NCBI RefSeq assembly: GCF_048403405.1 | Contig: NZ_CP183129.1 | Direction: 5' to 3' (one strand) | DNA: 64,000 nucleotides | Origin: Escherichia coli | GTDB taxonomy: Bacteria; Pseudomonadota; Gammaproteobacteria; Enterobacterales; Enterobacteriaceae | In this document: piece after piece, positions 15,771 through 33,127 of the stretch | Position numbering within the stretch: the stretch's first letter is position 1 | How the letters are laid out: each line of letters opens with the position of its first letter | Program-made: the position numbers and the translations under genes | The notes under the pieces: generated by a model | What the model saw: the letters and a program-made list of their open reading frames with translations, nothing else | Database searches by the model: none | Told to the model about the DNA's origin: nothing

Positions 15771-16091
15771 GGAACTAAAACGGGTCTATTTACAGGGCCA
15801 TCAGTTAGAAAATGTGGCGTACAACGATAAACAGTTTGGTTGCATAAAAAAACGTAAGAGTTGGTTATCATTCTTTCAACGTAAGGGAATTACAGTAGCG
15901 GTAGGAAAAACTGATAGGTTATTTTACATTGAATTCAAAAAACTGTTTATTTAAGCCGTTAGCGATAAGTTTCATTGTAATTTAGCCGGAAAATGTTCCA
16001 TTGGGAAAACTGAATTGAGACTAATATTATATTAGATGAGAATATTTCTGATGTAAATATACCGAGGAATGGAGGCATCCCTCGGTATATG

Positions 16092-18167
16092 TTAATTCAC
16101 ACCCAGCGCCTTATAAACCGCATCAACCGGGTCTGAGTAAAAACTCACCTGAAACTTGGTAAATAACTCTGCCGGAACCGTTGGAATATCCATAGCCGAG
16201 GACATCGGCAACAGAACCCGTTTTGCGCCGCTGTCGAAGGCGAGCTGTAAACTGGCGGCAAGATCCTGCACCGGGTTAATTACTCCACCAAGGGTCATAC
16301 TGCCCAACACCACCATCTGTTCCTGCACCGGCTTTGCCAGCAATATCGAACATAAAGCGATAAGCGCAGCAAGACTGGTTGCGGTGCTAGGGCCAGTATT
16401 ATGCAGTTCAACGACATGAAGGTGATATTCATGATCAGAGAATTTCGCTGCCGCGCTTACCCGATTCAAATTGCCTTTGAAGTAATCGAAACCGACGCGG
16501 ATAGCTTCTTTCGCGGAGGTATTTGAACCCAGGCCCGATACACTATGCTTACCATTACCGGCAGTCATCTGCGTTTCAAAACGATACAGCCCGGTCATAC
16601 CGCTTTCTGCCTGAGTGACCAAATGCACAACGCCCGGCTTTGGCATTCCGGCAGGAATTAGTTCGCTGCCGCCCTGTTCCGGTACGCTTACAAAAAACTC
16701 TTCCAGCGTTTCGTTATCGATGTAGCTAAAGTTCACATCGAAGAACTCCAGGCCGCCCAGTTTTTTAAGTTGCTCTTTCACTCGACGACGAACTTCCATC
16801 GCATAGGTCAGGCAGACTCGTACATCTTCTTTGCTGTACGCGCCATCGGGATGCATGAGTTTTAACAACCCCGACACTGTACGTCGAACAGCAATCACGT
16901 CACGCTGATTGAGGTTATTTCCCAGCTTGAAGAATTTATCAATTGCATCGGAGAAGCTACGTTTACGCATCTCGCGCATGTATTCAGCGAGATAATCCGT
17001 AATCAAACCATAGCGATTGGTGAAAAATTCCGGGCGCATCTTAGGAATTTCCCAACCAGGAATATAGGCATGGAAGCGGTCAAAAAATGCAGTATCAATC
17101 ATCGCATCCGGGAACGGTGCTAGCAGATGGCTGGTTTTGACCAGTGTATCTACGCTCTGATTGATGTTGCCAACAAACACCATGGAGGCTTTGCCTTCAA
17201 TGGAGTCCCGACCACGAGAGAATGAGCCTGATGCCATGTAATCCTTCATGATCTGCACGCCATCTTTGTCTTTGAAGGTGATCCCTGCCACTTCATCAAA
17301 CGCGACGACGTCCCACATTCCCACAAGACCAATCTGCCGGCTGGCCATGTTGTAAAACAAGTTCGCCACCGTGGTTTGCCCGCCAGATACCAGCAGGGAG
17401 TTAGGAGAGCACTCTTTATAAACATGACTCTTACCTGTACCACGTGGACCAAGCTCGCAGACGTTATAGTTGTTTTCCACAAAGGGAATCATGCGAGTAA
17501 TCAGATGCCACTTGGTACGCTGCTCAATATTTGCAGGTTCCATCCCGACCGAACGTAACAGCACATCAATCCACTGGTCGCGATCAAACTGCTTGCGGGC
17601 TTCAAATACCTCGTCCATATCCATATTTGGCATCTGGATCGGCTTCAGTGTGAACAGCGAGAAAGGAGACGTTTTTTGCCCCTCTTCATAAAAGTAGTTC
17701 ACGGTGATCATGCACCAGATGCCACCAGTCAGCAGTTTCTCGTTGTCTTTCACCATCTGCGACGGCACCAGGGCATCTTTAATGCCAAGGTTAGAGAGCT
17801 GGGCTTCGTAAACGTCTTTCTTCTGATTTAGCTTTACCGTGACCTTATCGATAATCTTGTAAGAACCACGCTCGCGAATTAGTGATTTCACTTTTTCTGC
17901 TTCATCCGGGCGGACGTAGTTATCAGAAAGAATACGCTTAACCGACTGTAGCCCCTGCTCGACAACCTCATCGTCATCGGAGGCACAGTACATACCGAGT
18001 AGATATTCCAGTACGTAAACCGGAACATTCGCCCCTTCTTTAAGTTGCTTAGTCAGATCCTTACGCACCACGCGACCGCGAAAGTGCTGATTCAACAATG
18101 AATCCAGGTCCTGAGCCAACACAGAGGCCGTTTCCATGTTACTGGCTGAGTTATCCTGCTGTTGCAT
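16092..18167 (-). CDS. brxL: BREX BrxL (Lon-like protease-domain ATPase)
   Basis: 691-aa ORF with Walker A (LGPRGTGKSH) and C-terminal Lon-protease-like domain; last gene of the BREX operon. Confidence 0.85.
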   Translation of the reverse strand: MQQQDNSASNMETASVLAQDLDSLLNQHFRGRVVRKDLTKQLKEGANVPVYVLEYLLGMYCASDDDEVVEQGLQSVKRILSDNYVRPDEAEKVKSLIRERGSYKIIDKVTVKLNQKKDVYEAQLSNLGIKDALVPSQMVKDNEKLLTGGIWCMITVNYFYEEGQKTSPFSLFTLKPIQMPNMDMDEVFEARKQFDRDQWIDVLLRSVGMEPANIEQRTKWHLITRMIPFVENNYNVCELGPRGTGKSHVYKECSPNSLLVSGGQTTVANLFYNMASRQIGLVGMWDVVAFDEVAGITFKDKDGVQIMKDYMASGSFSRGRDSIEGKASMVFVGNINQSVDTLVKTSHLLAPFPDAMIDTAFFDRFHAYIPGWEIPKMRPEFFTNRYGLITDYLAEYMREMRKRSFSDAIDKFFKLGNNLNQRDVIAVRRTVSGLLKLMHPDGAYSKEDVRVCLTYAMEVRRRVKEQLKKLGGLEFFDVNFSYIDNETLEEFFVSVPEQGGSELIPAGMPKPGVVHLVTQAESGMTGLYRFETQMTAGNGKHSVSGLGSNTSAKEAIRVGFDYFKGNLNRVSAAAKFSDHEYHLHVVELHNTGPSTATSLAALIALCSILLAKPVQEQMVVLGSMTLGGVINPVQDLAASLQLAFDSGAKRVLLPMSSAMDIPTVPAELFTKFQVSFYSDPVDAVYKALGVN

Positions 18168-18177
18168 AACGCCTCAC

Positions 18178-20775
18178 TTAAAAGAAGTCATCCTGAAATG
18201 CCAGGTCGATCGTGATCGGGTAGCGACCATACTCTGTTGCGCTGTCCGCATTCTCCAGGATAAGAACATACTTGTTTTTACGATTGAATGCCGTCCCCAT
18301 GAGTTTCATGGTTACATCGCGGGTGCGTTTACCCATATCTTCGTTATCACTGTCGAAGCATACTGTTTCCGTGCCGGAGACGACCTGGTTGTTTTCATCG
18401 ACGATAAAGATATTCAGCGTGCGCGGCTCATTTAAATCATTCACTGCCGAAGTCTGAATAAAACCAATTTTATCAATGCTGTTAACCAGTTTGATCACCT
18501 GATCCCGCGCAACGACGGGCACGGGCTGCCGCTGGGGTTGCTTCTCAGCCGCTTTCTTTTCAAGCGCGCGAATCTTCAACACAGGAACACACACTTCCTG
18601 CAGCATGGCTCCGCCATGAACGAAACGAGCACCCCCTACGAAGTGGAAACGCTGTACTCCTTTGGGTAACAGGAATTCACTTTCATCGCTTGCGCCTGCA
18701 GTATCAGCCAGTTTGCCGTGCCAGCAAAATTCACTTTCAGGCAGTTGATGGCCTACAATAAAACGCTTATTCGCTTCAATCGTGTCTTTGGCTTTACTTT
18801 CCAGCTTCGTTTTATCCTGCTCCACCAGCGCTTGTTGTTGGAACAGGAAGCCGTGATCGGCGGTAACAAAAATTCGGCTGGCATTAAATCGGCTACGCAG
18901 GCGTGAAACCAGATCTTTTAGCTCAGTGATTGCACTTCGGCAGGCCTCAAACGTTTTATCTTCCGTTGCAGCCTTATCACCCATGGCATCTATAGTGTCG
19001 TGCCAGATATAAACTACGGAAGCGTTGCGGATTTGCTCGTTCACTTCCTGGTTATTGGCGTTCTGCAAGTCCTTTGCTTTCAGCGCTACACCATTCACCT
19101 TCGCAAGAATAGCGGCTCTTTTTTCAAACCCGGAAGTGGACATCCCATCGGCGTATACTACACCAGAATTATCAGGAAGATAGCTCAACGACTCATGAGG
19201 CAACAGTGCGGCCATGCCCAGTTGGGTATAGCTTGGGAGCACTCCGGTCTGGGAGCGCAGCTCTGCACTGAAGTGCTTCTCATAGTTGATATGCCTGCCC
19301 AGCTCTTCCGCCACTTCGTAGCGCAATGCATCCGAGATCACGACAAAAACACGTTTGACCTGCGAGGTGTCAAACTGACGTTTAACATTCTCTTTATAGA
19401 AATTGCGCTGCAGGGGTATGCCGCTAAACTGCCAGGCCTGCATACGGTTTTCCGCTTCCAGCAGTTTGTTCCAGCCGCGACTTAGTTCAGTCAGATACCA
19501 ATTGCTGTATAACTCTTCGATGAATTTATCCAGTTCATGCAGGATCATCGCCCCTTTGCTGTGCACTGGTGCAGCATATTCATTGAACAAACGATAGGTC
19601 TGATCGAAGCGATAAATTTCGTCACAATAGGCCTTCCAGAACGCACCTGTATCGGGGAAATTAAACCCGTCGGTGTAACGGTTACGCAAATTCAGCAAGC
19701 GTTCTGCCTGACGAATAGCATTCCAGATAGAAAGATACTCTGGGCGGGTTTGGCTCCAGTATTTCGCACTGCGCTCTGAAACCAACGCTTTAAACGCATC
19801 TCTGTCCAGAGTGGTGCTCTCTTCCTGCAACTGTGTCACCAGACCACGGATAATAAGTTGCTCAATAGCCTCGAAGGTTTCACATTTTGCCAGTGTATAT
19901 GGTGAGCTGTAGTTGTAGTGTTCTTTTGGCTGGAGCGTCTGCTGCAAATCCTCTGCACAGTAATCGTATTCTACTTTATAGCGACGATCGTTGCGCCACG
20001 CCCCCATAAAGGCCAGTGACGAGGCCCGACCAGCCGCGGTAGCCAGCACATTTTTACTCAACCAGTCACGATGTGCTTCATCACCCTGCGCCCAGAGATC
20101 GGTACAGAACAGTTTCAGAAGCAGATTTTCCATTGAAGGAGATTCAGACTGGTATCCCAACTCAAGGCGAAGAATTTCCCAAAGTACCTCATCCAGGCCA
20201 AGCTTCGTCAGTACGGCGAAAGTGTTCTCGAGTGCGCTATCATCTTGCTGCCGTGCTGCGACAAACTGCTGAACCAAAGCAAATAGTATTTCTTTGGTTT
20301 CGAAGGTACTGGCCCCGACCACCACCGCCAGCATTTTCTTATCGAGAGAGTTTTCCGTTTCGCGCTCGGTGACCCATCCCTTCAGGATCTGAGTTCGCTT
20401 AACGGTAAAGAAGGCTTTGCGAAGCTGAATATGTTCGCGTAAACCGAGTTGCGGGATACCCAGAGAATTCAGGGTGATCGCCGCATAATCAGCGTGGAAT
20501 TCGGTACTATAGAGGCGGATATCCAGCAACCAGTCCTGCTCGCGAGCAGGAACCTCACAGGTGAAATAGAGTAAAAATTTCTGCTCAGGCTCGTCGATTT
20601 CGAGTCGTTTTTTTGTTGCGAGCACAGAAACGCCACGCATATCCAGCAGCGTGACATTGTCGAGATCCAGCTCATTAATTGAATCAGTGAAGCGTTGTTC
20701 CGGGTCGTGCCAGAAGACGATACGGTTGTCGGTAAACTTCTGACGAAGCCCTGATTCCAGTTCTTTAAATTGCAT
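18178..20775 (-). CDS. pglZ: BREX PglZ (alkaline-phosphatase-superfamily protein)
   Basis: 865-aa ORF with PglZ-type motifs (…VTADHGF…); positioned between the methyltransferase and brxL. Confidence 0.85.
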   Translation of the reverse strand: MQFKELESGLRQKFTDNRIVFWHDPEQRFTDSINELDLDNVTLLDMRGVSVLATKKRLEIDEPEQKFLLYFTCEVPAREQDWLLDIRLYSTEFHADYAAITLNSLGIPQLGLREHIQLRKAFFTVKRTQILKGWVTERETENSLDKKMLAVVVGASTFETKEILFALVQQFVAARQQDDSALENTFAVLTKLGLDEVLWEILRLELGYQSESPSMENLLLKLFCTDLWAQGDEAHRDWLSKNVLATAAGRASSLAFMGAWRNDRRYKVEYDYCAEDLQQTLQPKEHYNYSSPYTLAKCETFEAIEQLIIRGLVTQLQEESTTLDRDAFKALVSERSAKYWSQTRPEYLSIWNAIRQAERLLNLRNRYTDGFNFPDTGAFWKAYCDEIYRFDQTYRLFNEYAAPVHSKGAMILHELDKFIEELYSNWYLTELSRGWNKLLEAENRMQAWQFSGIPLQRNFYKENVKRQFDTSQVKRVFVVISDALRYEVAEELGRHINYEKHFSAELRSQTGVLPSYTQLGMAALLPHESLSYLPDNSGVVYADGMSTSGFEKRAAILAKVNGVALKAKDLQNANNQEVNEQIRNASVVYIWHDTIDAMGDKAATEDKTFEACRSAITELKDLVSRLRSRFNASRIFVTADHGFLFQQQALVEQDKTKLESKAKDTIEANKRFIVGHQLPESEFCWHGKLADTAGASDESEFLLPKGVQRFHFVGGARFVHGGAMLQEVCVPVLKIRALEKKAAEKQPQRQPVPVVARDQVIKLVNSIDKIGFIQTSAVNDLNEPRTLNIFIVDENNQVVSGTETVCFDSDNEDMGKRTRDVTMKLMGTAFNRKNKYVLILENADSATEYGRYPITIDLAFQDDFF

Positions 20776-21344
20776 TATTGATTCTCAAACCATTCGACCA
20801 GTTCATGAGCGCTAGGGCAAGCAGGGTGTCTGGCAGAACTCTGAATATCAAAACCGTGATGCGTTACCATTCTCCTGGCAAATGCGGTTTTAGAACTTCC
20901 CGGTCCCTGTTTTCCTAGCTCGCGTGAAATTACTTTTAAACGATCCCATGGCATTTCAGTTGTAGCTTCAGGTAACTCTTCATTAAATGTGTCTACTTTA
21001 AGCCATTTTTTCATTGCCTCTGAATCGGCAAGAAACCAAGCCTCAACTGCTTTGACTGCGATAAACGAGATGTCGACATCTTGATGGGCAATTCGGGCCC
21101 GTACATCAGCAACAGATGCCGCATCTTCCAGGTCGGTCAGAATACAGATCCGTTCAGCACCTACATTTCTGAGCCTAGCAACGAAATTATCAACATACTT
21201 CGGTAACAGGTTACCACCACCTTTGGCATCAATAACGGGAGTTACCAATTCAAAATTATTCGTGCGCAGAAATGCAATGAACGCTGGTGAATTCACGATG
21301 ATTGACTCAGTATCACCTTCAACGATAAAACCTATTTTTACCAT
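20775..21344 (-). CDS. small TOPRIM-like protein (DUF4276-like) embedded in the BREX operon
   Basis: 189 aa; N-terminal IGFIVEGDTE and downstream ICILTDLED resemble TOPRIM Glu and DxD motifs; start overlaps the ATPase stop by 7 nt and its stop overlaps the pglZ start (TAATG). Confidence 0.6.
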   Translation of the reverse strand: MVKIGFIVEGDTESIIVNSPAFIAFLRTNNFELVTPVIDAKGGGNLLPKYVDNFVARLRNVGAERICILTDLEDAASVADVRARIAHQDVDISFIAVKAVEAWFLADSEAMKKWLKVDTFNEELPEATTEMPWDRLKVISRELGKQGPGSSKTAFARRMVTHHGFDIQSSARHPACPSAHELVEWFENQ

Positions 21345-22459
21345 GGCAAACCGCCATCAAACATATTCATCAGCCACGCGGTATCCAGTGGGATTTCCTT
21401 TTTATCAACCCCCGCATCTGAAGCATGCATCAGCTGAGTTTTCCCCTCTTTTTTACTAACAAACCACAGTTCGTCTGGTTCCAGATTGCGAACAATAGAT
21501 TCACTATGGGTAGTAATAACAATTGGATGATTCAAAGAGGCATTTTCACGCATCAATTGCACAAGTTCCCCAATGGCTTTTGGGTGAATACCGCGTTCAG
21601 GCTCTTCAATAATGGTCATCCCCGTTTGCTGTGCTCGACTCAAGATGGCCGTCATAATACAAAGCGTGAAGATGGTGCCGTCAGAGATAAGATGGGCAGG
21701 AAAGCGGGCACGAGTTCCCTGTTCTTTAAAGGTCAATACCGTTGAGCCATCCAATTTTTGTTTCTCGGTCGATACATTTTCCATCCCCGGAACGATGAGT
21801 TCCATCCACTCCAGTATTTGCTCTTTAAATTCGCTATTCGATTCGAGAGCAGCAAGCACAGAAGCAATGTTTCGACCATGACTGTCCAGAAATGTCGAGT
21901 CAGTTTTGGCGCTATCGGGCTCTTTAGCACGTAACGGATCGATGCGAAAAACAACAATATTGGTCAAAAAAGCGTACAGTTCACTTTTCCCCAGTAGCAT
22001 TAGTGCCGTCATATCTGACGAGTAGTTAGGGATTAAAGTCGCAGGGATTTCATCACTATCGCTCAGGCGAATCATAAGAGTATCAGGGTGCTTACGATCA
22101 ATATAAATATCTCCATCAATGACCAACTTTTCAGTGATTGTTGGTTTTTTATCCATGTTTTTGATCGTCAAGTCATAGGTAAACTGTTTTCCTCCCAGCT
22201 CAATTTGAAGGTGCAGTGAAGCCGTAGTCCGATTTTCCTTACGCAGCTTGTAGCAATGAATCTGCTGAAAACCGCCAAAATCACGGATTGCTTGTGTCGC
22301 CCCGGTTTTCACTACGGCACCAAAAAAAGCCAATGCATCGGTAATGTTACTTTTGCCCGCACCATTGGCTCCAGCAAAGGTGATAAATGGTGGGCTTTCC
22401 ACAAGGGAAAGCTCCGCGATGCTCTTGTAGCCTTTAATAATCAGGGGATGTTGATCCAT
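21338..22459 (-). CDS. ABC-type ATPase (AAA_15/AAA_21-like) embedded in the BREX operon
   Basis: 373 aa; Walker A (GANGAGKSN) near the N-terminus and C-terminal ABC-like H-loop region (IVITTHSESIV); start overlaps the pglX stop (TAATG). Confidence 0.7.
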   Translation of the reverse strand: MDQHPLIIKGYKSIAELSLVESPPFITFAGANGAGKSNITDALAFFGAVVKTGATQAIRDFGGFQQIHCYKLRKENRTTASLHLQIELGGKQFTYDLTIKNMDKKPTITEKLVIDGDIYIDRKHPDTLMIRLSDSDEIPATLIPNYSSDMTALMLLGKSELYAFLTNIVVFRIDPLRAKEPDSAKTDSTFLDSHGRNIASVLAALESNSEFKEQILEWMELIVPGMENVSTEKQKLDGSTVLTFKEQGTRARFPAHLISDGTIFTLCIMTAILSRAQQTGMTIIEEPERGIHPKAIGELVQLMRENASLNHPIVITTHSESIVRNLEPDELWFVSKKEGKTQLMHASDAGVDKKEIPLDTAWLMNMFDGGLPW

Positions 22460-25400
22460 TATGCCTCCTGTGGCGCACTGCCGGTGATCGCCTTGACATC
22501 CGCCAGCAGATCGCCAAATTTGCCGTAGTTAACCTTAACGCCGTCATCCAGATCAATAGTGATACGTCTATCAGCATAGTGACGCAAGCGATCGTCAAAA
22601 TTGCGCAGCTCGTTGAATTTTTTAGTCAACCCATCCAGCTCTTTTTTCAGGCGTGTGGTGGCAGCGCCCGATTCTGCATTTTTAAGCTGATCGTTAACAA
22701 GATCGATATTTCCCTGGTAGCGTGCCAGCAGCGGAACTACATATTCGGTACGCATACGTGACAATGTGCCTTCATTATAACGGTGCAGATACACCAGGCA
22801 CTCAAACGCCTTCTCTTTACCTGAGCTGAATAGCCAGTAAATTGGGCGCTTCTTGTACATCTTCATATGATCTTTCCAGAACTGGGTGGAAAGATAGCGA
22901 CGGATGGTATCCAGCGAAGACTCGCCTTTTTTCGGCTTGATTGCGTACAAGCAGAGGCTTTCGGCGATGAAATCGAGGTTTTCTTGTAAATGTTCTTCGC
23001 CCCAGACTGTGCGAACGAACTCTTTAACGCGGGAGGTAACATCGTCATCGAACCAGTCAGAATCCATTAATGGCAGGATACCATCTTCATCGGCAGGGAA
23101 GGTTTGGTAGGCGCCTTCATCTACTAATTCAGAAAAGCCTTTGTTACCTTCGTGGGCGTAGACCAAGCCTTCGCGATCAAGGGAATAGCGGCCCATCATG
23201 CAGCCAATAGCCAGGCTAAGTGAGTTTATAACCTGAATCGCCTTAAATTGGTTATATTCATCTTTTGAAATTGAGCTTAATGACTGGAAAACATTATTTT
23301 CCAATGTTATTTCTGCCAAGGCAAGATTGTTTTCGTTTAAAATATTGCATTTTTCATAAAATATTTTGTTATTATCACATTCTAGCTCATGTGTTTTGAT
23401 TAACTTTTGATAAAAAACTTCAGTCTGGTTTTTTAATATGTTTACTAGGCTGCCGTTTTGAAACGCATCCTGATTGAAGGAAAACTGATAACTATTTTCC
23501 TGCTGACTCCAATTTTCTTTAGCCAGAGAAATTAGTTCAGCAGTGTTCAAGGATAGGCTCTCAATCATTTTCTCATCAAAAAATGCTGGTAATTTACTTA
23601 TATCCCCCGGTTGATAATTTAATGTTGGAGAGATAGCCTTTATTAAAGAGATAATAATATCACTATTAATAAATGCTAACACAGGCAGGTAAAGGTCTTC
23701 ATTATTAACAAATAACGAAGACCCTGCATTGTCAAATAATGAGGACTCTGAGACTCTTGCAGATGTCTTGCTTGAGGAAAGAGCGTTCCATGTAATCCCT
23801 TTTTTAAATATAAAATCTAAATTATAGTTATGCGAACGTACCTTTCCTGATTTTTCATCGGTAAAATTTTGAATTTCCCGACCATCGTCGAACCAATTTA
23901 CGACATAATCAAGATTACCGTACCACTTTCTATATTCACCACCTTTCTGATAAGGGAACCATTTCAGACCGGATTTTTTAGCTTGAATACGATCAGTAAA
24001 ATCAAAACCGATATTCGCGAAATTAACTTCATGCCAAAAACGTAAAAAACGCTCATTATCCGCTGTTGCCATTCCAAGGCGTGTTGAGGCAATTTGAGAT
24101 ATTTTTTTATTATCAAATAAATTAACCTCACTTTCGCTGAGCCAATACGCAATCGGTGCACCGGGGATTTTTTGGAAGTCATCGGCAGCGGCAGTCTTTA
24201 AACGATCGTTTTTAACCGGAAATTCTTTTGGATATCCTTCATCATTGATATCGTCATTCTCAGTATAAGAGAATGCCCCTTGATAAGAAGGAATGTGAAC
24301 ATTTCTAAACACTGTTGCATTGGTACCAAAGGCAATTTTCATAACGCCATTGCCCATATGTACCATCGTCTCAATAGTGTATTTATCCAATATATTCGCA
24401 CGCATATTTTCATAGCTAGACAAAAACATCCATGATTGCATAGTCACCATTGAGTTGTACGCAGCATCTTTGAGCCAGGAAAAACCCCGCTCAATAAACA
24501 TCGCAAACAAATCTGACTTACTGTCCGGGAATTGTTTCTTAGCGAACTCTTTCAGTTCACCGTTCATCCCTTTCCCACCCATATACGGCGGGTTCGCCAC
24601 AACCGCATCGTAACGCTGCGCCAAAATCCACGCCTGCTGAATATACGGAATCAGCTCTGCTGCCGCTTCTTTCTGCGGGATATCACCCTCGACAGCCAGA
24701 CGATATAGTCCACCCAGGAATGTCTTCAGCGCCGTTTCATCTTCCTGCGGCACCTGAATCAGTGATCCCAGCGTTTTTGCACTAGTGAACAAAGCCAGAG
24801 TACGCATCAGTAGCTTATATTCCGCGCTGTCGGTATTGGCCAGTGACGTCCCTTGGGTAAACATATCTCCCATGCTGCCGCGTTGCGCCTGCTGATGAAA
24901 GTTCAGCTTGGTCCACAGTTCAGCGATATCCAGTTTACTTTCCTGCAGCGAAACGATATTCAGGCGAACGCCACGGCCCAGAATACGACGATCGTCCTGA
25001 CGGGCAAGCATCAGCATCGCAAAACCGGAAAGCTGCGCCGCACGGTCATCAATATCTAGGCCGAAAATATTGTTTTCCAGAATCAGCTGCGGAATGTCAC
25101 GGGTACGGTAGCCACGCTCTTCGTAAATGGCCTTCAGCACGTTATAGGCTTCGGTCAGGATATGCCCGGAGCCGCAGGCCGGGTCCAGCACCTTAATACT
25201 TTCTGGTTCAATGCTTGATGGGGTAATAGCCGCCAGCTGTGCCTGCACTTCCGGCGTTTGTTCCGCTGGCTCAATGTAGTACGGCATTTTGCCTTTCAGG
25301 CTGGAGTCCGGATAGGTTTGCAGCCACTGGCGGCCCACCGAGTTCTGCACCAGATACTGCACAATCCAGTTCGGAGTAAACAGCTGGGTAGCGGCAGGAA

Positions 25401-26112
25401 TATCTTCGCTCTTCACCACCTTGCCGATCACATCATCTTTTTTCTCGGAAATATAAAACTGATACAACCAGCCGATCACTTCGACCTGTTTCCAGTCTTC
25501 TTCAGGAATCGTGTCCACCAGCCCGCGCAGAATAGAGTCGGTGCGAGTCAGGTTATCCGGCAATACCAGTTCGATATCATCATTGACTGCTTCGAACAGG
25601 AAAGGCATAGCGCCGTGCAGCGCATGGCACTGTGCAAGCAATAGTTCACGGTACAGCTCTTCGTCACGATCGCCCGCCAGCTTCATCTCCACCAGGCGTG
25701 ATTTGTCCAGCCCAAGTGCATCAGCCACTTCCGGCACATGATCCAGAACCTCAAAACTCCCTTCCAGGGTCGGGTGAGACAGCATACGGAAACCGTGATC
25801 AAGATAGCCATGCAGCTCCATATAGCGAATAGCGCAAAAGCGGTTAAACCAGGTGTAAGCGATGTGCTCCACCAGCACGTCATAGCCCTGCTTTTCTGCA
25901 CGCTTGACCAGACGTTCACGGCGTGAAGCCAGTGATTTATCCAGCGAGAACTGACCATATCGCACACTGTCGCCAAGATCGGTTGCTTGCGCTATTTGCA
26001 GGTTGCCTTTTTTATCGGCGTCAATACCCAGCGTGGTCAGTTTTTGCATGACCGCATCGCGGAACTGTTTACGTGCCACCGGGGCGTATTTTTTGATATT
26101 TGACGTATTCAT
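22459..26112 (-). CDS. pglX: BREX PglX (N6-adenine DNA methyltransferase / specificity protein)
   Basis: 1217-aa ORF with methyltransferase motif I (LDPACGSGHIL) and motif IV (VVANPPYMGG); AT-rich central to C-terminal block. Confidence 0.85.
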   Translation of the reverse strand: MNTSNIKKYAPVARKQFRDAVMQKLTTLGIDADKKGNLQIAQATDLGDSVRYGQFSLDKSLASRRERLVKRAEKQGYDVLVEHIAYTWFNRFCAIRYMELHGYLDHGFRMLSHPTLEGSFEVLDHVPEVADALGLDKSRLVEMKLAGDRDEELYRELLLAQCHALHGAMPFLFEAVNDDIELVLPDNLTRTDSILRGLVDTIPEEDWKQVEVIGWLYQFYISEKKDDVIGKVVKSEDIPAATQLFTPNWIVQYLVQNSVGRQWLQTYPDSSLKGKMPYYIEPAEQTPEVQAQLAAITPSSIEPESIKVLDPACGSGHILTEAYNVLKAIYEERGYRTRDIPQLILENNIFGLDIDDRAAQLSGFAMLMLARQDDRRILGRGVRLNIVSLQESKLDIAELWTKLNFHQQAQRGSMGDMFTQGTSLANTDSAEYKLLMRTLALFTSAKTLGSLIQVPQEDETALKTFLGGLYRLAVEGDIPQKEAAAELIPYIQQAWILAQRYDAVVANPPYMGGKGMNGELKEFAKKQFPDSKSDLFAMFIERGFSWLKDAAYNSMVTMQSWMFLSSYENMRANILDKYTIETMVHMGNGVMKIAFGTNATVFRNVHIPSYQGAFSYTENDDINDEGYPKEFPVKNDRLKTAAADDFQKIPGAPIAYWLSESEVNLFDNKKISQIASTRLGMATADNERFLRFWHEVNFANIGFDFTDRIQAKKSGLKWFPYQKGGEYRKWYGNLDYVVNWFDDGREIQNFTDEKSGKVRSHNYNLDFIFKKGITWNALSSSKTSARVSESSLFDNAGSSLFVNNEDLYLPVLAFINSDIIISLIKAISPTLNYQPGDISKLPAFFDEKMIESLSLNTAELISLAKENWSQQENSYQFSFNQDAFQNGSLVNILKNQTEVFYQKLIKTHELECDNNKIFYEKCNILNENNLALAEITLENNVFQSLSSISKDEYNQFKAIQVINSLSLAIGCMMGRYSLDREGLVYAHEGNKGFSELVDEGAYQTFPADEDGILPLMDSDWFDDDVTSRVKEFVRTVWGEEHLQENLDFIAESLCLYAIKPKKGESSLDTIRRYLSTQFWKDHMKMYKKRPIYWLFSSGKEKAFECLVYLHRYNEGTLSRMRTEYVVPLLARYQGNIDLVNDQLKNAESGAATTRLKKELDGLTKKFNELRNFDDRLRHYADRRITIDLDDGVKVNYGKFGDLLADVKAITGSAPQEA

Positions 26113-26160
26113 ATGAAGTCCTGAAAAGGGCAGACAATGTCTGCCCTGAAAATGGGGAAA

Positions 26161-29100
26161 TTACTGAAGCTGTACGCGTTCACCTGCGTTAATGGCATCC
26201 ATTAGCGTTTTACGGAGTTGTTCCAGCGCTTTGTCTACCTGTTCGGCGTTATCCAGCGTTGTCACACCCGCCGCTCGTTCCATCGTTTTACGCGTGTTTA
26301 CGTAGATGGTTTTTTTCAGCTTGGGTTCAGGCTTAACTACGGGGTCGATAATCCCAGGCTGAGGAGCAGGTTTTGGATCAGACACTTTCTTACGCTGATC
26401 CTCAACCCAGCCGTTCAGCCGTTCATTCGCTTTAAATTGTAGCGCTCGAACCTCAGCCTGTTCTTCCATAATCTGTGGGATCAGGCCGTTCTGCTCCACT
26501 TTCTTACGCGATTGTTGCATCGGGTGTAAAAGCGAGTGTTGCAAGTCAGCAGGGACGTGCATCTCCTGCATGCTTTGCTTAAGTTCATTGATATGACCAT
26601 CGATCTGTAGCAGCGCATGGCTTCGATATTCTTCGACCAGACGCTGGTTGATGGTTTCAACGGTTTCAATCAGCGGGATAATCCGATGCAGTTCTCCATA
26701 AGGTCGTGCCTTGCTGTAGATCCCTTCCAGTTCCTGTAACGCCTTTTGGGCCGTTTCGTCTTTATCCAGCGCGTTACGGTTAGCTTTAAAACTGCCATTC
26801 AACGCCATACTCAAGCGCTGCCAGGTAGCGTATTGGTTTTTGTAGAAGCTAACCAAATCGTCCCAGTCTTCCGAGAAATCTTTAAGATCGTCAGCCGCTG
26901 CGGTGATTTTTTCAATGACCGCGTATTCCTCTTTCTCGTTAAGGATCCCGTTCAGCAATACCAGACCTTCTTCTATCTCTTTACGGCCAGGGTTTTGTCC
27001 ACTCTCTGCACGAGTTTTAAAAACAGTCAACTCGCTATTCCAGCGGCCAAAGAGTTCGCGAATATGAGAGACCAACGACTGTTCTTCACGCTCGTTAAAC
27101 GGCTCTCCAGCAATCTCTGCCATCAGCTGCGCAGCTTTAGTCAACTGTGCTTCATCATGGCGACGAACTTTATGCAGACGCAAATCGCTGTAACGACGTG
27201 AATTATTAAACGCGTCCCACGCCTGCTTCAGTGCGATTTCACTGCCTTGCAGAGTGAAGCTGTATTTACCGCTGCGTGCCAGCCGAGCAACCAGCAATTT
27301 GACTTCATCTTCCGGCCAGCCAAACGGGCGACGGCCAAAAGTGGTGAGAATATCCCGCAGGTAAACTGGCTTATGAGTCTCAATACTCATGCTGATCCAG
27401 TTATCCACTTCACGCATCGCCTCTGGGTTGGATTCTTCCATACCCCCGAGATCGAGCTGGGTATCATTTTCTACTGTCAACAGCGCGTGAGTTTCACGAT
27501 TTACGTCTCCGGTACTAAGACGCAGCAATTTTAGTTTAGAGAAACTGTTCTCGATAACGTAACCGCAGGCTGCATCCACGATAGCTAACGGCGAAGAGGA
27601 TTTCTTATCCAGCCGTTCGCCCAGCGCCCAGACATCAGCTTGAGCCAGCAAGCCTTCAATCTGCGCCTTAAGCGTTTTTTCACGCATACTATTTTCACGG
27701 CCTTTTTCCGCCAACAGCGTTGCCTGTTCCGGGCGCTGGCCGCTTTGCTTGCTGAGGAAAGCTTTGGTCTGAGCGTACATGGTCAGGTCTTGCCAGGTAC
27801 GAGCCTCATCAGGCAGGCAAATTAAGATGCAGTCTTTACTGTCCGTCATCAGCAGACTATTAGAATGCGCACCCTTATAGCTCTCGTAGTTCGAGTCCAG
27901 TGGCGTGAGCACTTTAACCACCAGATCGTTAAGATTCGCACCATCCAGCGGATGTCCGTTACAAAAACGACTGATATCAAAATCCTGCTTATTGGCCGGA
28001 TAGCGATATCTTTTGTTTTTCAGGATCTCTTCGAAAATGATGGTTGAGAGTTGCTTATTGATGGTGGTGAATTCCACGTCAATATTGCGGATTTCGTTTT
28101 CAATCTCTTTTTCTTCGTTAGTGAGAAAAACAAATTTGTCATCAATACGCGAGATCAGCATCTCAGCCTGCAGACGATTAAGGCTGGCTTCAATCTGTCG
28201 ACGGAGTTCCACTTTATCAGTATCAATACGCTCAATAGAGAGCGTGACGAGATTGTCGAGAGTACTTTTCAGCACATCGACGTAGCGGATCAGGAACAGT
28301 GTCTTTAGTAGTTTGCCGTCAAATTCAGTCAGTGACGGAGACTGGCAGGCCTGAATAATAGTGCGGCTAACTGCAGGTTCCAGGAAGCTTTCAATCGCTG
28401 AATAGAAGCGCCAGAACGGGACCAGACTATCCAGACCATCTGCGGAGATTTGCACAGCAGCCGACTGGAAGGCATCTAGCAAAGAGCGCTCCCCCATTGC
28501 CAGCTGCTTACCTGCGGCCCCTTTAGTACGGATTGATTCAAAGACTTTTTGCAGGATCTGGTAATGCCACGGTACAAACGGATAGTTATCCACGAACTCG
28601 CGGCTGTTTGTATAGGCTCGCAGAGTAGCGGTCGTTGTCGTGTCAAACGCCAACTGGTTACGCAGAATATCGCCTTTTTCCTGCCAGATAGCTTCCAGCG
28701 CCGGTATTGCCGCATCGGTTTTTACCAGCAGACGTTTCTGGATAACTTCTGAAGTATTCGAGCTGGAGAGTTGTAAGCGCGTTGAGAAACGTCCCTGAAT
28801 CTTGGAGAAGTCCTGACCATCACGACTGCTCATACCGCCAATAGCAGCATTAATGTCAGCCTGGGAGGTAACTATCACCCATGCCCGCCCACCACAAATA
28901 ACGCCCAAGTTTTCGGTGATAGTTTGCAGCTTGAGCATCATCTGAGCATCTTTACCAATGAACTGACCAACTTCATCGACCATAAACAGGATATTGCGAT
29001 TACCATGGCTGTCGAGCCACTCTTTCACCCACGTACAGAAATTTTTGATATCCAATGGGAAGTTCTTATCAAGTTGCTCGATCCATTGACGAGAAGACTC

Positions 29101-29775
29101 TTCACTCTGGCCTGTAGCAATACTCAGTGCCTGAGCCATCTGATCGTTTATCATCAGATAAACATCACGTTCGTCTTCCCAGCGAGACCCTGTAATGTCC
29201 GCGAAGGCTGCCCTAAAGGTATCAAATTGTCCACGCTTATCGAGCTCACGTTCCAGATGTGCAATATGTGGGAAGTCGCCACAATAACCAGCTAGTTCGT
29301 TAAAGACTTTCAGAAAGACTTTGAGTATGGCATCAACGCCATCTTCAACATTCGCACGTGAGTCAATATTGAATAATATGACATCGGTCGGATGTTGTAC
29401 CGATTTCCGAATATCAGCCAATAGCAGTGCATCATCAATTTTCTCTTCAAAGAAGGAAAGTGCATTACGAGTGACACCATTATGGCTTACTTCGCGGTTC
29501 GCCAGTAGATAGGATAAGATCTTAATGAAGTGTGATTTACCCGAACCAAAGAAGCCTGAAACCCAGACGCCTATTTTGTCAGCAAGCTGTAATCTGCCAG
29601 GGCCAGTAGCAGGGGCATATACTTCAAAGAACTGACGCAGGTGACCATCCAGCTCTCTGGTAATGACATACTCATCCAGTTCTATCCAGGCGCTTTCGTC
29701 GTCGGTCTGCTCGGCTTTAACCACGCCGTTAATATTACGTTTTAGCTGTTTCTCAAAAATTTGTTCAATATTCAT
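26161..29775 (-). CDS. brxC: BREX BrxC/PglY (large P-loop ATPase)
   Basis: 1204-aa ORF with N-terminal Walker A (GFFGSGKSHFIKIL); position between brxB and pglX. Confidence 0.85.
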   Translation of the reverse strand: MNIEQIFEKQLKRNINGVVKAEQTDDESAWIELDEYVITRELDGHLRQFFEVYAPATGPGRLQLADKIGVWVSGFFGSGKSHFIKILSYLLANREVSHNGVTRNALSFFEEKIDDALLLADIRKSVQHPTDVILFNIDSRANVEDGVDAILKVFLKVFNELAGYCGDFPHIAHLERELDKRGQFDTFRAAFADITGSRWEDERDVYLMINDQMAQALSIATGQSEESSRQWIEQLDKNFPLDIKNFCTWVKEWLDSHGNRNILFMVDEVGQFIGKDAQMMLKLQTITENLGVICGGRAWVIVTSQADINAAIGGMSSRDGQDFSKIQGRFSTRLQLSSSNTSEVIQKRLLVKTDAAIPALEAIWQEKGDILRNQLAFDTTTTATLRAYTNSREFVDNYPFVPWHYQILQKVFESIRTKGAAGKQLAMGERSLLDAFQSAAVQISADGLDSLVPFWRFYSAIESFLEPAVSRTIIQACQSPSLTEFDGKLLKTLFLIRYVDVLKSTLDNLVTLSIERIDTDKVELRRQIEASLNRLQAEMLISRIDDKFVFLTNEEKEIENEIRNIDVEFTTINKQLSTIIFEEILKNKRYRYPANKQDFDISRFCNGHPLDGANLNDLVVKVLTPLDSNYESYKGAHSNSLLMTDSKDCILICLPDEARTWQDLTMYAQTKAFLSKQSGQRPEQATLLAEKGRENSMREKTLKAQIEGLLAQADVWALGERLDKKSSSPLAIVDAACGYVIENSFSKLKLLRLSTGDVNRETHALLTVENDTQLDLGGMEESNPEAMREVDNWISMSIETHKPVYLRDILTTFGRRPFGWPEDEVKLLVARLARSGKYSFTLQGSEIALKQAWDAFNNSRRYSDLRLHKVRRHDEAQLTKAAQLMAEIAGEPFNEREEQSLVSHIRELFGRWNSELTVFKTRAESGQNPGRKEIEEGLVLLNGILNEKEEYAVIEKITAAADDLKDFSEDWDDLVSFYKNQYATWQRLSMALNGSFKANRNALDKDETAQKALQELEGIYSKARPYGELHRIIPLIETVETINQRLVEEYRSHALLQIDGHINELKQSMQEMHVPADLQHSLLHPMQQSRKKVEQNGLIPQIMEEQAEVRALQFKANERLNGWVEDQRKKVSDPKPAPQPGIIDPVVKPEPKLKKTIYVNTRKTMERAAGVTTLDNAEQVDKALEQLRKTLMDAINAGERVQLQ

Positions 29776-29787
29776 TGCTGTCGTCTT

Positions 29788-30390
29788 TTAACGAGGAGTC
29801 AAAGTCGCCGCCGGTCTGGTTTCTGGTACCAGTCTGAAGGCGCGGTAATAGTTACGAGAATTAATGCCAGCGAGTGGAGAAAGATCGTATCCGCTATAGG
29901 TGCCTGGATAGAACATCAGCAATGGTGTAAATCCCATCACGTCCTGAAGTGCGCTCATTAGCTCATGACCACGAACCAACGGCCAGGCGTTACCAAGTCC
30001 CGTCAGAATGACAAATTGCTGCGCAGGAAGATCGACCGTGCGTGCAATATATTCCGCGATTTTTTTCTGGCTTAGCGGGGCAGCCAGATGCTTTTTCAGT
30101 GTCTCAAGGCCAAGCTCAGGCTCTCGTTGGCAGATACGTTCAAAGAGCTTACGTTCTTCCAACATATCGATGATAATCTGGAAGATATTTAGCGTTTTAT
30201 AGGTGTACTTTTTATCCAGTTTTTTGAATAAAAAGTGCAAGTACTCGCGGACCTGAAGCTCTTGTTTTGCCGGATAATCAAAGATCCAGAAGCCAATCTC
30301 ATTGCCGGAACCTTGGTTTTTCAAAAAACGGTCGTCGCCGATACGTTCTTCTAACTGTTTTAATCGGTATTCAAGGATCGGGTCATTCAT
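29788..30390 (-). CDS. brxB: BREX BrxB (DUF1788-like)
   Basis: 200-aa ORF between brxA and brxC; 4-nt overlap with brxA. Confidence 0.7.
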   Translation of the reverse strand: MNDPILEYRLKQLEERIGDDRFLKNQGSGNEIGFWIFDYPAKQELQVREYLHFLFKKLDKKYTYKTLNIFQIIIDMLEERKLFERICQREPELGLETLKKHLAAPLSQKKIAEYIARTVDLPAQQFVILTGLGNAWPLVRGHELMSALQDVMGFTPLLMFYPGTYSGYDLSPLAGINSRNYYRAFRLVPETRPAATLTPR

Positions 30391-31007
30391 GCGTTACCCT
30401 CCAGAATAGGGAGCAGTTCGGCTTTGTTTAAACGATGCAAGGCCGCTGCAACAACTGGTAGCAGGAAAACGTTTTGTAAATTGCGGCGGCGTGGGCTATC
30501 CAGGTAACCAGCTTCTGCGAGAGCCTTAATAAGATTGTTACCCATCTTTTGGATCGATGAATCAGAAAAAGCTGCCAGTTCCGGGTGTAAACGGAGATTC
30601 TCATCCACAAACTCACTCCAACAATTTATACCAAGCTTTTCTTTAAACTGCTGACGAGCTGGATTTACAACTTCAGCAATAAACGTCGCAACAACTGGAG
30701 ACTGGATCATCAACGCAACCAACAACATTTGCAGACGCTCGCTTTCACTGCCATCAGCAATCAGTTGCCAGCACTCCCGATCCAGGGTCATCAATCGCAG
30801 CCTTAAGGTTCGGGCATAACGATTTGCCGTACTCGTGGAGGACGCCTGAAGAATATTTTCATTGATTATTTGCTGCTGCCAGGTTGTTTCATCTGGTTCA
30901 GAGAGCAACAGCTCAGCAATGGTTCGGCTCTCACGAACCATCAACGAACCACCCAGCAGATCGCCAATCCAGCGTTTGTCATTTTTTGTCATGGTATTTA
31001 TCATCAA
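30387..31007 (-). CDS. brxA: BREX BrxA (DUF1819-like)
   Basis: 206-aa first gene of the operon, preceded by ~570 bp of non-coding DNA. Confidence 0.7.
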   Translation of the reverse strand: MMINTMTKNDKRWIGDLLGGSLMVRESRTIAELLLSEPDETTWQQQIINENILQASSTSTANRYARTLRLRLMTLDRECWQLIADGSESERLQMLLVALMIQSPVVATFIAEVVNPARQQFKEKLGINCWSEFVDENLRLHPELAAFSDSSIQKMGNNLIKALAEAGYLDSPRRRNLQNVFLLPVVAAALHRLNKAELLPILEGNA

Positions 31008-32920: not shown

Positions 32921-33007
32921 AAGCCTGTTGATGTGGGTTGAGTCAGGTTGACTTCAGTTGAGGAGAAAAGCTGGAAAAGCCTTGCGTGGTGCGGATTTCA
33001 GGCATAA

Positions 33008-33042: not shown

Positions 33043-33127
33043 TGGTGCCGAAGGCCGGACTCGAACCGGCACGTATTTCTACGGTTGATTTTGAATCAAC
33101 TGCGTCTACCGATTTCGCCACTTCGGC
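33043..33127 (-). tRNA. leuX: tRNA-Leu (anticodon CAA)
   Basis: Reverse complement reads GCCGAAGTGGCGAAATCGGTAGACGCAGTTGATTCAAAATCAACCG…GGTTCGAGTCCGGCCTTCGGCACCA, with CAA in the anticodon loop and a 3' CCA. Confidence 0.9.

What the first reader, a model, noticed from the sequence alone, without database searches (positions are those of the whole stretch)
16092..31007. Complete type 1 BREX system in a leuX-associated genomic island
Six canonical genes in canonical order on the minus strand: brxA (206 aa), brxB (200 aa), brxC (1204 aa, Walker A), pglX (1217 aa, NPPY methyltransferase), pglZ (865 aa), brxL (691 aa, Lon-like). They are tightly packed with short gaps or overlaps and lie directly beside a disrupted P4-type integrase and tRNA-Leu. 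This is accessory, horizontally acquired phage defence, absent from the K-12 layout of this locus.
Basis: partly seen in the sequence, partly recalled or inferred. Interest (0 to 1): 0.6.

Follow-up and report, generated by a model that had tools for sequence, protein, structure and literature searches.

The report
BREX-1 defence operon with nested cassette

Summary
They are full length, have no internal stops, and score far above curated family cut-offs. The Walker A and NPPY motifs, tRNA-Leu(CAA), the broken P4-type integrase and the absence of BREX at K-12 leuX all check out.

The operon has eight genes, not six. The 1.68 kb between pglX and pglZ holds an ABC ATPase (373 aa) and a DUF4276/TOPRIM protein (189 aa). 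They are translationally coupled on both sides and replace the 176-bp spacer seen in cassette-free E. coli BREX loci.

This pair matches the published but unvalidated candidate system HEC-01. It is not canonical PARIS, because it has no DUF4435. It is also not the cassette that Salmonella LT2/D23580 carries at the same junction. Relatives of the pair are free-standing in most species, so it is an autonomous module nested in BREX.

The PglX target-recognition domain (33% GC) has been swapped relative to otherwise 97-99% identical loci, so the methylation motif cannot be predicted.

The locus is 100% identical to RefSeq genomes already annotated as BREX-1. Verdict: real, correctly interpreted, incomplete description, already known, low interest.

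The parts
30387..31007 (-). brxA (DUF1819), 206 aa from TTG 31007. RefSeq uses ATG 30992 (201 aa).
   Evidence: PADLOC BrxA 1.8e-94, profile positions 2-199 of 200. RefSeq annotates it as a DUF1819 family protein.
29788..30390 (-). brxB (DUF1788), 200 aa. Overlaps brxA by 4 nt.
   Evidence: PADLOC BrxB 4.8e-67. Matches solved BrxB 9nv3_A at 7e-99. Junction.
26161..29775 (-). brxC, P-loop ATPase, 1204 aa, Walker A GFFGSGKS from residue 74.
   Evidence: NCBIfam NF033441 1196 bits against a cut-off of 400. PADLOC full length. Motif.
22459..26112 (-). pglX, N6-adenine DNA methyltransferase and specificity subunit, 1217 aa, NPPY at 507.
   Evidence: NCBIfam BREX_1_MTaseX 1462 bits against a cut-off of 500. 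Full-length match to solved BrxX/PglX 9ewz, 8zek and 8c45. Motif.
23206..24141 (-). Swapped, low-GC (33.3%) segment inside pglX, within PglX residues ~650-1000 (the target-recognition domain).
   Evidence: The only stretch that fails to align with strain ws5-3, whose locus is otherwise 97-98.6% identical. Protein identity is 19-58% there. GC. It also diverges from the E. coli HS enzyme.
21338..22459 (-). Nested gene 1: OLD-type ABC ATPase (HEC-01A), 373 aa. Its start overlaps the pglX stop (TAATG).
   Evidence: PADLOC HEC-01A 1.2e-181, full length. Pfam AAA_21 4e-24. Walker A, signature SDGT, Walker B IEEPE and the H-loop are conserved in 71 relatives.
20775..21344 (-). Nested gene 2: DUF4276 / TOPRIM-fold predicted nuclease (HEC-01B), 189 aa. 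Overlaps the ATPase gene by 7 nt, and its stop overlaps the pglZ start (TAATG).
18178..20775 (-). pglZ type A (alkaline-phosphatase-fold protein; reported as a metal-dependent nuclease), 865 aa.
   Evidence: TIGR02687 1031 bits against a cut-off of 270. Solved PglZ 9nv3_C 1303 bits, full length. Nuclease activity from PMC12205998.
16092..18167 (-). brxL, Lon-related ATPase, 691 aa, Walker A from residue 240.
   Evidence: TIGR02653 1338 bits against a cut-off of 628. Solved BrxL 8emc 1140 bits.
31008..31575 (-). 568-bp non-coding leader upstream of brxA, presumed to be the promoter region. No BrxR/WYL regulator gene lies here.
   Evidence: No ORF of 80 aa or more. Sequence read. The consensus promoter scan was uninformative. 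A brxA-proximal promoter is mapped in Salmonella (PMC11341690).
31576..32843 (-). P4-family tyrosine integrase pseudogene.
   Evidence: RefSeq marks it 'frameshifted; internal stop'. tblastn with the intact 422-aa ws5-3 integrase splits into two frames at residues 122-124. In-frame TGA and TAG are visible.
33043..33127 (-). tRNA-Leu(CAA), leuX. The 3'-terminal 24 nt (33043-33066) behave as the island's attachment core.
   Evidence: ARAGORN. In strains where a second island lies between leuX and this module, identity ends at window 33066.
14673..15778 (+). IS3-family transposase remnant just beyond brxL. It travels with the int-BREX module on both chromosomes and plasmids.
   Evidence: RefSeq pseudogene annotation at the same relative position in MS 69-1, ws5-3, pLR-06-1 and strain 4621.

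Best explanation
The region is a complete, apparently functional type 1 BREX operon (brxA-brxB-brxC-pglX-[ATPase-TOPRIM]-pglZ-brxL). It sits at the proximal end of a P4-integrase genomic island inserted at the 3' end of leuX in E. coli.

From established knowledge of BREX-1, not shown here: PglX, with BrxB, BrxC and PglZ, methylates one adenine in a 6-bp non-palindromic motif on host DNA. The full complex blocks replication of incoming DNA that carries unmethylated motifs.

Shown here: this allele's target-recognition domain has been exchanged. Inferred: its motif therefore differs from the characterised GGTAAG (E. coli HS) and GATCAG (Salmonella) enzymes.

Shown here: a separate two-gene module, an OLD-type ABC ATPase plus a small TOPRIM-fold protein (PADLOC HEC-01), has replaced the pglX-pglZ intergenic spacer and is translationally coupled to both neighbours.

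Inferred only: the ATPase is a sensor that licenses the TOPRIM nuclease to cut nucleic acid, as in PARIS, Gabija and OLD. This would act as a second-line or abortive layer expressed together with BREX, possibly responding to phage anti-BREX factors.

Shown here: the integrase is dead, so the island is now fixed in place in this strain.
For: - Family membership of all six core proteins is far above curated cut-offs and covers the full length.
- There are no internal stops and the catalytic motifs are intact.
- PglX, BrxB, PglZ and BrxL closely match solved BREX proteins.
- RefSeq annotates the 100%-identical locus as BREX-1.
- Cassette autonomy: the pair is free-standing or prophage-borne in Andreprevotia, Vibrio, Moraxella and most of 80 species loci, always with the same 7-nt overlap.
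- Insertion architecture: the empty junction has a 176-bp spacer; here both outer joints read TAATG.
- Recognition-domain swap.
- Island and mobility.
Against: - No functional data exist for this allele. Methylation, the motif and phage exclusion are untested.
- No promoter could be identified by consensus scanning.
- HEC-01 gave no protection against any phage in the one published test (bioRxiv 10.1101/2024.01.29.577857).
- The analogous but different cassette in Salmonella D23580 was also inactive in every assay, and deleting it slightly increased BREX defence (PMC11341690).
- The proposed sensor-nuclease role therefore rests on homology and fold only.
Confidence: 0.9

Rival explanations
1. 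The two nested genes are a PARIS system (AriA/AriB), the same as the 'ariA/ariB' described inside Salmonella D23580 BREX. Under this reading they abort infection when the anti-restriction protein Ocr is sensed.
For: - Same position between pglX and pglZ as in Salmonella LT2/D23580 (PMC11341690 and PMC9009780).
- The ATPase hits a PADLOC AriA model at 6e-26.
Against: - The AriA hit spans the same residues and model positions (28-323 to 4-303 of 304) as the generic Pfam AAA_21 hit, and it is about 150 orders of magnitude weaker than HEC-01A.
- The small protein matches DUF4276, not DUF4435, and matches no AriB model.
- Neither protein has a sequence match to solved AriA or AriB.
- D23580 primers lying in ariA/ariB, and all the deletion-junction primers, fail to match the window, while primers in the flanking BREX genes do match. 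The D23580 interval is also about 206 bp longer.
- The species-representative scan found no Salmonella enterica locus.
Confidence: 0.07
2. The ATPase-DUF4276 pair is a dedicated BREX subunit pair, a variant 'eight-gene BREX', rather than an independent system.
For: - It is translationally coupled on both sides.
- It is found at exactly this junction in Enterobacterales, Beta- and Gammaproteobacteria: 10 of 80 species loci plus Xenorhabdus and Salmonella.
Against: - 70 of 80 species loci show no BREX gene in the sequence held. Clear free-standing and prophage-borne copies exist.
- Embedded and free copies interleave on the tree.
- About 94% of related E. coli BREX-1 loci lack it.
- In Salmonella, the cassette at this site is dispensable for methylation and defence.
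Confidence: 0.06
3. The operon is a decaying, non-functional remnant, like the integrase and IS fragment beside it.
For: The integrase is a pseudogene and an IS3 remnant abuts brxL. No functional data exist for this allele.
Against: - All eight ORFs are intact and full length against their profiles.
- Catalytic motifs are present.
- Identical copies are kept in at least 8 genomes, and copies 96-98% identical with the same gene set in others.
Confidence: 0.05
4. pglX is a stand-alone type IIG restriction-modification enzyme rather than a BREX methyltransferase.
For: Its best PADLOC hit is the REase_MTase_IIG model PDLC03600, at 1823 bits against 1486 for the best PglX model.
Against: - The curated NCBIfam BREX-1 PglX model scores 1462 against a cut-off of 500.
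- The protein aligns end to end with solved BREX BrxX/PglX.
- It sits in canonical BREX order with five other BREX genes.
- From my own knowledge: BREX PglX proteins share the MmeI-like fold but lack a nuclease domain.
Confidence: 0.02

Closest known systems
Type 1 BREX of E. coli HS (brxA-brxB-brxC-pglX(brxX)-pglZ-brxL; motif GGTAAG; solved BrxX 9ewz/8zek)
   Same: Same six genes in the same order, with full-length homology. The PglX N-terminal and methyltransferase domains are nearly identical.
   Different: - HS-type loci have pglX directly followed by pglZ across a ~176-bp spacer and are only ~74% identical in DNA there.
- The HS island is at thrW, not leuX (PMC9009780).
- The PglX recognition domain differs.
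- From my own knowledge: HS has an upstream BrxR regulator. None is present here.
Salmonella Typhimurium LT2/D23580 BREX (StySA; motif GATCAG; island at leuX; 'PARIS' ariA/ariB between pglX and pglZ)
   Same: An eight-gene layout with a two-gene ATPase plus small-protein cassette at the same junction. It lies in a leuX island with a P4-family integrase.
   Different: - The cassette is a different one. It is annotated ATPase plus DUF4435, is about 206 bp longer, and its primers do not match the window.
- PglX is a different allele: 1225 aa, different C-terminus and recognition domain.
- Other Salmonella serovars (L009-L011) do carry the same DUF4276 cassette as this window, 93-95% identical.
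HEC-01 (Hma-embedded candidate 01; ABC ATPase + TOPRIM; Payne et al., bioRxiv 10.1101/2024.01.29.577857; PADLOC-DB v2)
   Same: Both proteins match the HEC-01A and HEC-01B profiles at full length, 1.2e-181 and 5.2e-100. The paper also reports a TOPRIM fold with a conserved metal site resembling Burkholderia OLD 6NK8.
   Different: HEC-01 was defined from copies embedded in Hma systems; this copy is embedded in BREX-1. No anti-phage activity has been shown for HEC-01.
PARIS (AriA ABC ATPase + AriB DUF4435 TOPRIM; Ocr-triggered tRNA cleavage)
   Same: A two-gene OLD-family ABC ATPase plus a separate TOPRIM effector, with a plausibly similar sensor-to-nuclease logic.
   Different: - The effector is DUF4276 (189 aa), not DUF4435 (~305 aa).
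- The ATPase is 373 aa, against AriA described as 53-55 kDa.
- No AriB profile hit and no sequence match to solved AriA/AriB.
MADS Mad3/Mad4 (ATPase + DUF4276 inside a methylation-associated defence system)
   Same: The same domain pair nested in a methylation-based defence locus (PMC12065111). The ATPase hits MAD3 at 4.7e-24.
   Different: The MAD3 score is 85 bits against the equivalog cut-off of 420. The small protein matches no NCBIfam family and no PADLOC family other than HEC-01B.

Membership tests
BREX type 1 | BrxA (DUF1819) present | tested here: met
   PADLOC BrxA 1.8e-94, near full length. RefSeq DUF1819 annotation.
BREX type 1 | BrxB (DUF1788) present | tested here: met
   PADLOC BrxB 4.8e-67. 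Solved BrxB 9nv3_A at 7e-99.
BREX type 1 | BrxC/PglY P-loop ATPase with Walker A | tested here: met
   NF033441 1196 bits against a cut-off of 400. GFFGSGKS from residue 74.
BREX type 1 | PglX N6-adenine methyltransferase of the BREX-1 type with NPPY | tested here: met
   NF033452 1462 bits against a cut-off of 500. The BREX-2, -5 and -6 models fall below their cut-offs. NPPY at 507.
BREX type 1 | PglZ type A | tested here: met
   TIGR02687 1031 bits against a cut-off of 270. The type B model scores 51 against 400. Solved PglZ 9nv3_C 1303 bits.
BREX type 1 | BrxL Lon-related protein | tested here: met
   TIGR02653 1338 bits against a cut-off of 628. Solved BrxL 8emc 1140 bits.
BREX type 1 | Canonical gene order A-B-C-X-Z-L on one strand as one cluster | tested here: met
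   The order is kept and all genes are on the minus strand, but a two-gene cassette interrupts X-Z.
BREX type 1 | PglX-dependent m6A methylation of a 6-bp asymmetric motif on host DNA | not testable with these tools
   Needs SMRT or nanopore methylome data. The motif cannot be read from the sequence, and the recognition domain differs from characterised enzymes.
BREX type 1 | Exclusion of unmethylated phage | not testable with these tools
   Needs plating assays.
HEC-01 (PADLOC candidate) | HEC-01A ABC ATPase adjacent to HEC-01B TOPRIM protein on the same strand | tested here: met
   1.2e-181 (profile 1-371 of 371) and 5.2e-100 (profile 1-188 of 188). The genes overlap by 7 nt.
HEC-01 (PADLOC candidate) | Anti-phage activity | not testable with these tools
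   The published test of HEC-01 found no protection against any phage tried.
PARIS | AriA-type ABC ATPase | tested here: inconclusive
   The hit to PADLOC AriA PDLC02980 (6e-26) spans the same residues and model positions as the generic Pfam AAA_21 hit. No match to solved AriA at E <= 0.01.
PARIS | AriB = DUF4435 TOPRIM effector | tested here: not met
MADS (Mad3/Mad4) | Mad3 equivalog ATPase | tested here: not met
   NF047739 scores 85 bits against a cut-off of 420.
OLD-family TOPRIM nucleases (fold level) | TOPRIM fold with conserved acidic metal-binding residues | tested here: met
P4-type integrase tRNA island | Tyrosine integrase next to the 3' end of a tRNA gene | tested here: met
   The integrase pseudogene at 31576-32843 lies ~200 bp from leuX. 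It is intact (422 aa) in ws5-3 and pLR-06-1.
P4-type integrase tRNA island | Direct repeat of the tRNA 3' end at the distal island boundary | tested here: inconclusive
   No second copy of the 23-nt tRNA 3' end occurs in the window, even with 3 mismatches. The island runs off the left end of the window.

The most novel reading that the evidence does not exclude
The pglX|pglZ junction of BREX-1 is a dedicated docking site for interchangeable OLD-type ATPase plus TOPRIM cassettes: DUF4276/HEC-01 here and in many Enterobacterales, and a DUF4435 'PARIS-like' cassette in Salmonella LT2. Under this reading the HEC-01 cassette is a BREX guard. It would be silent unless BREX is disabled by a phage anti-BREX factor, which would explain why it scored negative when tested alone. 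The repeated, precise, translationally coupled nesting would then reflect a functional dependence on BREX co-expression, not just a permissive insertion site.
Probability: 0.25. Interest if true: 0.55.

Novelty: already known. Interest (0 to 1): 0.22.

Why it matters
The BREX operon adds nothing new. It is a textbook type 1 system, identical to sequences RefSeq already labels BREX-1. Three smaller points have practical value.

1. Annotation. The cassette nested in this lineage should not be called PARIS by analogy with Salmonella D23580, because it is a different, DUF4276-based module (HEC-01).

2. A testable system. HEC-01 is an orphan candidate with conserved catalytic residues and no known trigger. 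A natural copy co-transcribed with BREX in a tractable E. coli background is a good place to look for that trigger, for example among anti-BREX proteins.

3. Specificity. The cleanly swapped, 33%-GC recognition domain between near-identical loci is a natural example of BREX specificity switching. It could extend the residue-to-motif rules now being engineered for PglX.

Tried and rejected
- I first assumed the nested pair was the Salmonella 'PARIS ariA/ariB'. I rejected this after the species-representative scan returned no S. enterica locus. D23580 primers from the paper's supplement then mapped to the flanking BREX genes but not to the cassette, with a 206-bp length difference. This evidence is indirect, because I could not fetch STM4493/4494 themselves. 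That the S. enterica representative genome is LT2 is my own knowledge.
- L009-L011 looked at first like the LT2 locus. Their PglX is not the 8c45 allele, so they are other serovars.
- The consensus promoter and terminator scan of 15700-31700 gave counts at or below the shuffled expectation. Nothing usable came of it.
- A search for a distal attachment repeat in the window found only the tRNA itself.
- PDB sequence searches with the two cassette proteins found no specific relatives.
- The phage genome collection gave only two ~2.5-kb unannotated fragments, which are probably host DNA. The cassette is therefore not a common cargo of deposited phages, despite the Vibrio P2-like prophage example.
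- A literature search for the PglX accession found nothing, so this allele has no published motif in the held library.
- The first PADLOC call on island neighbours failed because the window lacks the IS2 copy present in MS 69-1, which shifts the coordinates.
Full report
**1. Observation**

The window is E. coli chromosome. Positions 16000-33200 are 100% identical to strains TUM14771, GN02461, MS 69-1 and TUM1226.

The quoted motifs are present:
- BrxC Walker A, GFFGSGKS from residue 74.
- PglX NPPY at residue 507.
- BrxL Walker A from residue 240.

tRNA-Leu(CAA) lies at 33043-33127 on the minus strand.

The integrase beside it is a pseudogene. Compared with the intact 422-aa copy in strain ws5-3, it changes frame near codon 122-124 and carries in-frame stops.

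In K-12 MG1655 the same ahr-leuX junction is followed by the intB pseudogene, IS2 and yjgX, with no BREX.

One statement is wrong. The genes are not all 'tightly packed'. pglX and pglZ are 1,683 bp apart, and that interval holds two further minus-strand genes: 21338-22459 (373 aa) and 20775-21344 (189 aa). The operon has eight genes.

**2. The six core genes are BREX-1**

| Protein | PADLOC | NCBIfam score vs curated cut-off |
|---|---|---|
| BrxA | 1.8e-94 | no hit |
| BrxB | 4.8e-67 | no hit |
| BrxC | full length | 1196 vs 400 |
| PglX | full length | BREX-1 model 1462 vs 500; BREX-2, -5, -6 models fail their cut-offs |
| PglZ | full length | type A 1031 vs 270; type B 51 vs 400 |
| BrxL | near full length | 1338 vs 628 |

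PglX, BrxB, PglZ and BrxL align end to end with solved BREX proteins: 9ewz/8zek/8c45, 9nv3_A, 9nv3_C and 8emc.

PglX's single best PADLOC hit is a type IIG model. The curated BREX-1 model, the alignment to solved BrxX and the gene context outweigh that hit.

No BrxR/WYL regulator lies in the 568-bp leader upstream of brxA. A consensus promoter scan was at chance level and shows nothing.

**3. The nested pair**

*Domains.* Pfam gives AAA_21 (4e-24) for the 373-aa protein and only DUF4276 (1.5e-5) for the 189-aa protein. PADLOC gives HEC-01A at 1.2e-181 and HEC-01B at 5.2e-100, both covering the full profile.

*ATPase motifs.* The ATPase has Walker A (30-37), a signature SDGT (259-262), Walker B IEEPE (284-288) and an H-loop histidine (318). 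All are essentially invariant in 71 relatives.

Acidic residues E9, E13, D71, E/D73, E101 and D107 are conserved. This fits the published assignment of DUF4276 to the TOPRIM superfamily (PMC12065111).

*Junctions.* The joints are TAATG (pglX/ATPase), ATGGTAA (ATPase/DUF4276) and TAATG (DUF4276/pglZ).

*Empty site.* A cassette-free E. coli BREX-1 locus (strain S1) has a 176-bp non-coding spacer with a GC-rich hairpin at that position. The cassette has replaced this spacer and is translationally coupled on both sides.

**4. The pair is not PARIS and not the Salmonella LT2/D23580 cassette**

Published work places 'PARIS ariA/ariB' (Went 2024, PMC11341690), or 'ATPase + DUF4435' (Zaworski 2022, PMC9009780), at the same junction of the Salmonella leuX BREX island. 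I tested whether that is the same cassette.

- A pattern scan of one genome per species, using the DUF4276 family alignment, found Yersinia ruckeri (89% identical) and 79 more distant taxa. It found no S. enterica locus.
- D23580 primers from the paper's supplement map to the window's brxB, brxC, pglX and pglZ with 1-4 mismatches. Every primer inside the ariA/ariB interval, and all the deletion-junction primers, fail to match.
- The distance between two flanking primers is 3489 bp in D23580 and 3283 bp here.
- The small protein has no DUF4435 or AriB profile hit. Neither protein has a sequence match to solved AriA or AriB.
- The PADLOC 'AriA' hit of the ATPase spans the same residues and model positions as the generic AAA_21 hit.

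I conclude that two different OLD-type cassettes occupy the same BREX junction in different lineages. Other Salmonella serovars (L009-L011) do carry the window's DUF4276 cassette, at 93-95% identity. The LT2 comparison is indirect, because I could not retrieve the LT2 genes themselves.

**5. The pair is an autonomous module**

Homologues at 50-60% identity occur in several contexts, always with the 7-nt overlap:
- embedded between pglX and pglZ in Xenorhabdus;
- free-standing next to polA in Andreprevotia;
- inside a P2-like prophage beside the CI repressor in Vibrio fluvialis;
- free-standing in Moraxella.

Of 80 species loci, 10 have the pair directly after pglX in a BREX locus. The other 70 show no BREX gene in the sequence held, though a few of those contigs are too short to judge.

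On a neighbour-joining tree of the concatenated pair, embedded and free copies interleave. This suggests repeated gain or loss at this junction. The tree has no bootstrap support, so this is a suggestion only.

In E. coli, 403 of 5,426 complete genomes have a related BREX-1 pglX-pglZ interval, but only 26 carry the cassette.

This pattern has been described in general terms. HEC-01 was found by 'guilt by embedding', and no defence was seen when it was tested (bioRxiv 10.1101/2024.01.29.577857). OLD-ABC plus TOPRIM pairs in BREX loci were catalogued in 2026 (PMC12839542).

**6. Specificity**

The window and strain ws5-3 are 97-98.6% identical across the island except for window 23206-24141. That stretch falls within PglX residues ~650-1000, where protein identity drops to 19-58% and GC is 33.3%, against 45.5% for the whole gene. 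The same region diverges from E. coli HS BrxX.

PglX alleles of 1215, 1217, 1218, 1221 and 1225 aa occur on otherwise similar loci. PglX is the BREX specificity factor (PMC11341690), so this allele's motif probably differs from GGTAAG and GATCAG. It cannot be predicted here.

**7. Island and mobility**

- In strain 4621 the identical int-BREX-IS3-remnant module sits behind another CP4-like island. Identity ends at window 33066, 24 nt into the tRNA 3' end, which behaves as the attachment core in a tandem array.
- Plasmid pLR-06-1 carries the module with an intact integrase.
- In the window the integrase is dead.
- No distal attachment repeat lies within the window, so the island extends beyond its left end.

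**8. Mechanism**

*Shown here:* gene content, intactness, family membership, fold of the small protein, conservation of catalytic residues, and insertion architecture.

*Inferred:* the cassette is an ATP-driven sensor that licenses a TOPRIM nuclease as a second-line or abortive response, possibly to anti-BREX factors. The evidence against activity is real. HEC-01 tested alone was negative, and the analogous Salmonella cassette was inactive in every assay.

**9. Verdict**

The system is already known and already annotated as BREX-1 in RefSeq. Residual interest lies in the nested, unvalidated HEC-01 cassette, in its being distinct from the 'PARIS' at the same site in Salmonella, and in the swapped recognition domain.

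Noticed in passing
window 1524-2928 (-): An AbiE abortive-infection / toxin-antitoxin pair. AbiEii nucleotidyltransferase toxin (315 aa, PADLOC 1.1e-126) and AbiEi/DUF6088 antitoxin (154 aa, 2.9e-53). This is a second defence module on the same island.
   Followed up: partly
window 12037-14181 (+): Four co-oriented small genes between the WYL gene and the IS3 remnant. Two have no family hit (180 aa and 324 aa; the 324-aa protein has one marginal type II REase hit). A 90-aa protein has a weak PDC-M14A / CxxC zinc-binding hit. A 97-aa GIY-YIG protein matches only the N-terminal 91 of 212 positions of PADLOC PDC-S57, so it looks truncated. This may be a decayed or unknown defence cassette.
   Followed up: partly
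window 9633-11440 (-): A WYL-domain protein (PADLOC WYL 1.9e-16) lies next to a frameshifted GTPase-family gene. It is about 20 kb from brxA and on the far side of the operon, so it is not a BrxR-type regulator placed upstream of BREX.
   Followed up: partly
window 2929-5902 (-): A typical CP4-like island backbone: DUF4942, CbtA toxin / YeeU antitoxin, RadC and DUF932, according to the RefSeq annotation of the identical region.
   Followed up: no
window ~7000-7700, compared with L001 6604-7832: MS 69-1 has an IS2 copy here that the window lacks. Coordinates left of this point are therefore offset by about 1.3 kb between the two, and the window comes from a different strain with an otherwise identical island.
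   Followed up: partly
window 272-922 (-): A 216-aa ORF with weak hits to type IV methyl-directed restriction enzymes and to a phosphorothioated-DNA restriction endonuclease (E 1e-3 to 1e-5). It is not annotated in the stretch of MS 69-1 that I examined.
   Followed up: no
window ~52120-53787 (-): The lowest-GC stretch of the window (34%) coincides with a 555-aa 'hypothetical protein' between argF and tabA, in otherwise core chromosome.
   Followed up: no
window 22455-22462 and 20771-20778: Both outer junctions of the nested cassette read ATAATG (stop TAA overlapping the next ATG). This 6-bp identity at the two ends could be a recombination scar or just convergent translational coupling.
   Followed up: partly
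L006 / L007 (Vibrio fluvialis), 8892-10561: The same ATPase-DUF4276 cassette sits in a P2-like prophage, directly after the CI repressor gene and beside a Dcm / Vsr / MvaI-BcnI-like restriction-modification cluster and the integrase. This resembles the known P2 defence hotspot.
   Followed up: no
L009-L011 (Salmonella enterica), 16485-21122: Downstream of brxL these Salmonella islands carry a PLD-family protein, an Mrr-like type IV restriction enzyme and a large helicase-PLD protein. The BREX module is therefore one part of a larger defence island there, with different neighbours from those in E. coli.
   Followed up: no
phage records OR845467.1 and OR845405.1: Two ~2.5-kb unannotated records labelled 'Escherichia phage ECO95 1-6-1' contain fragments of this DUF4276 gene at 92-95% identity. 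They are more likely packaged or contaminating host DNA than phage genes.
   Followed up: no
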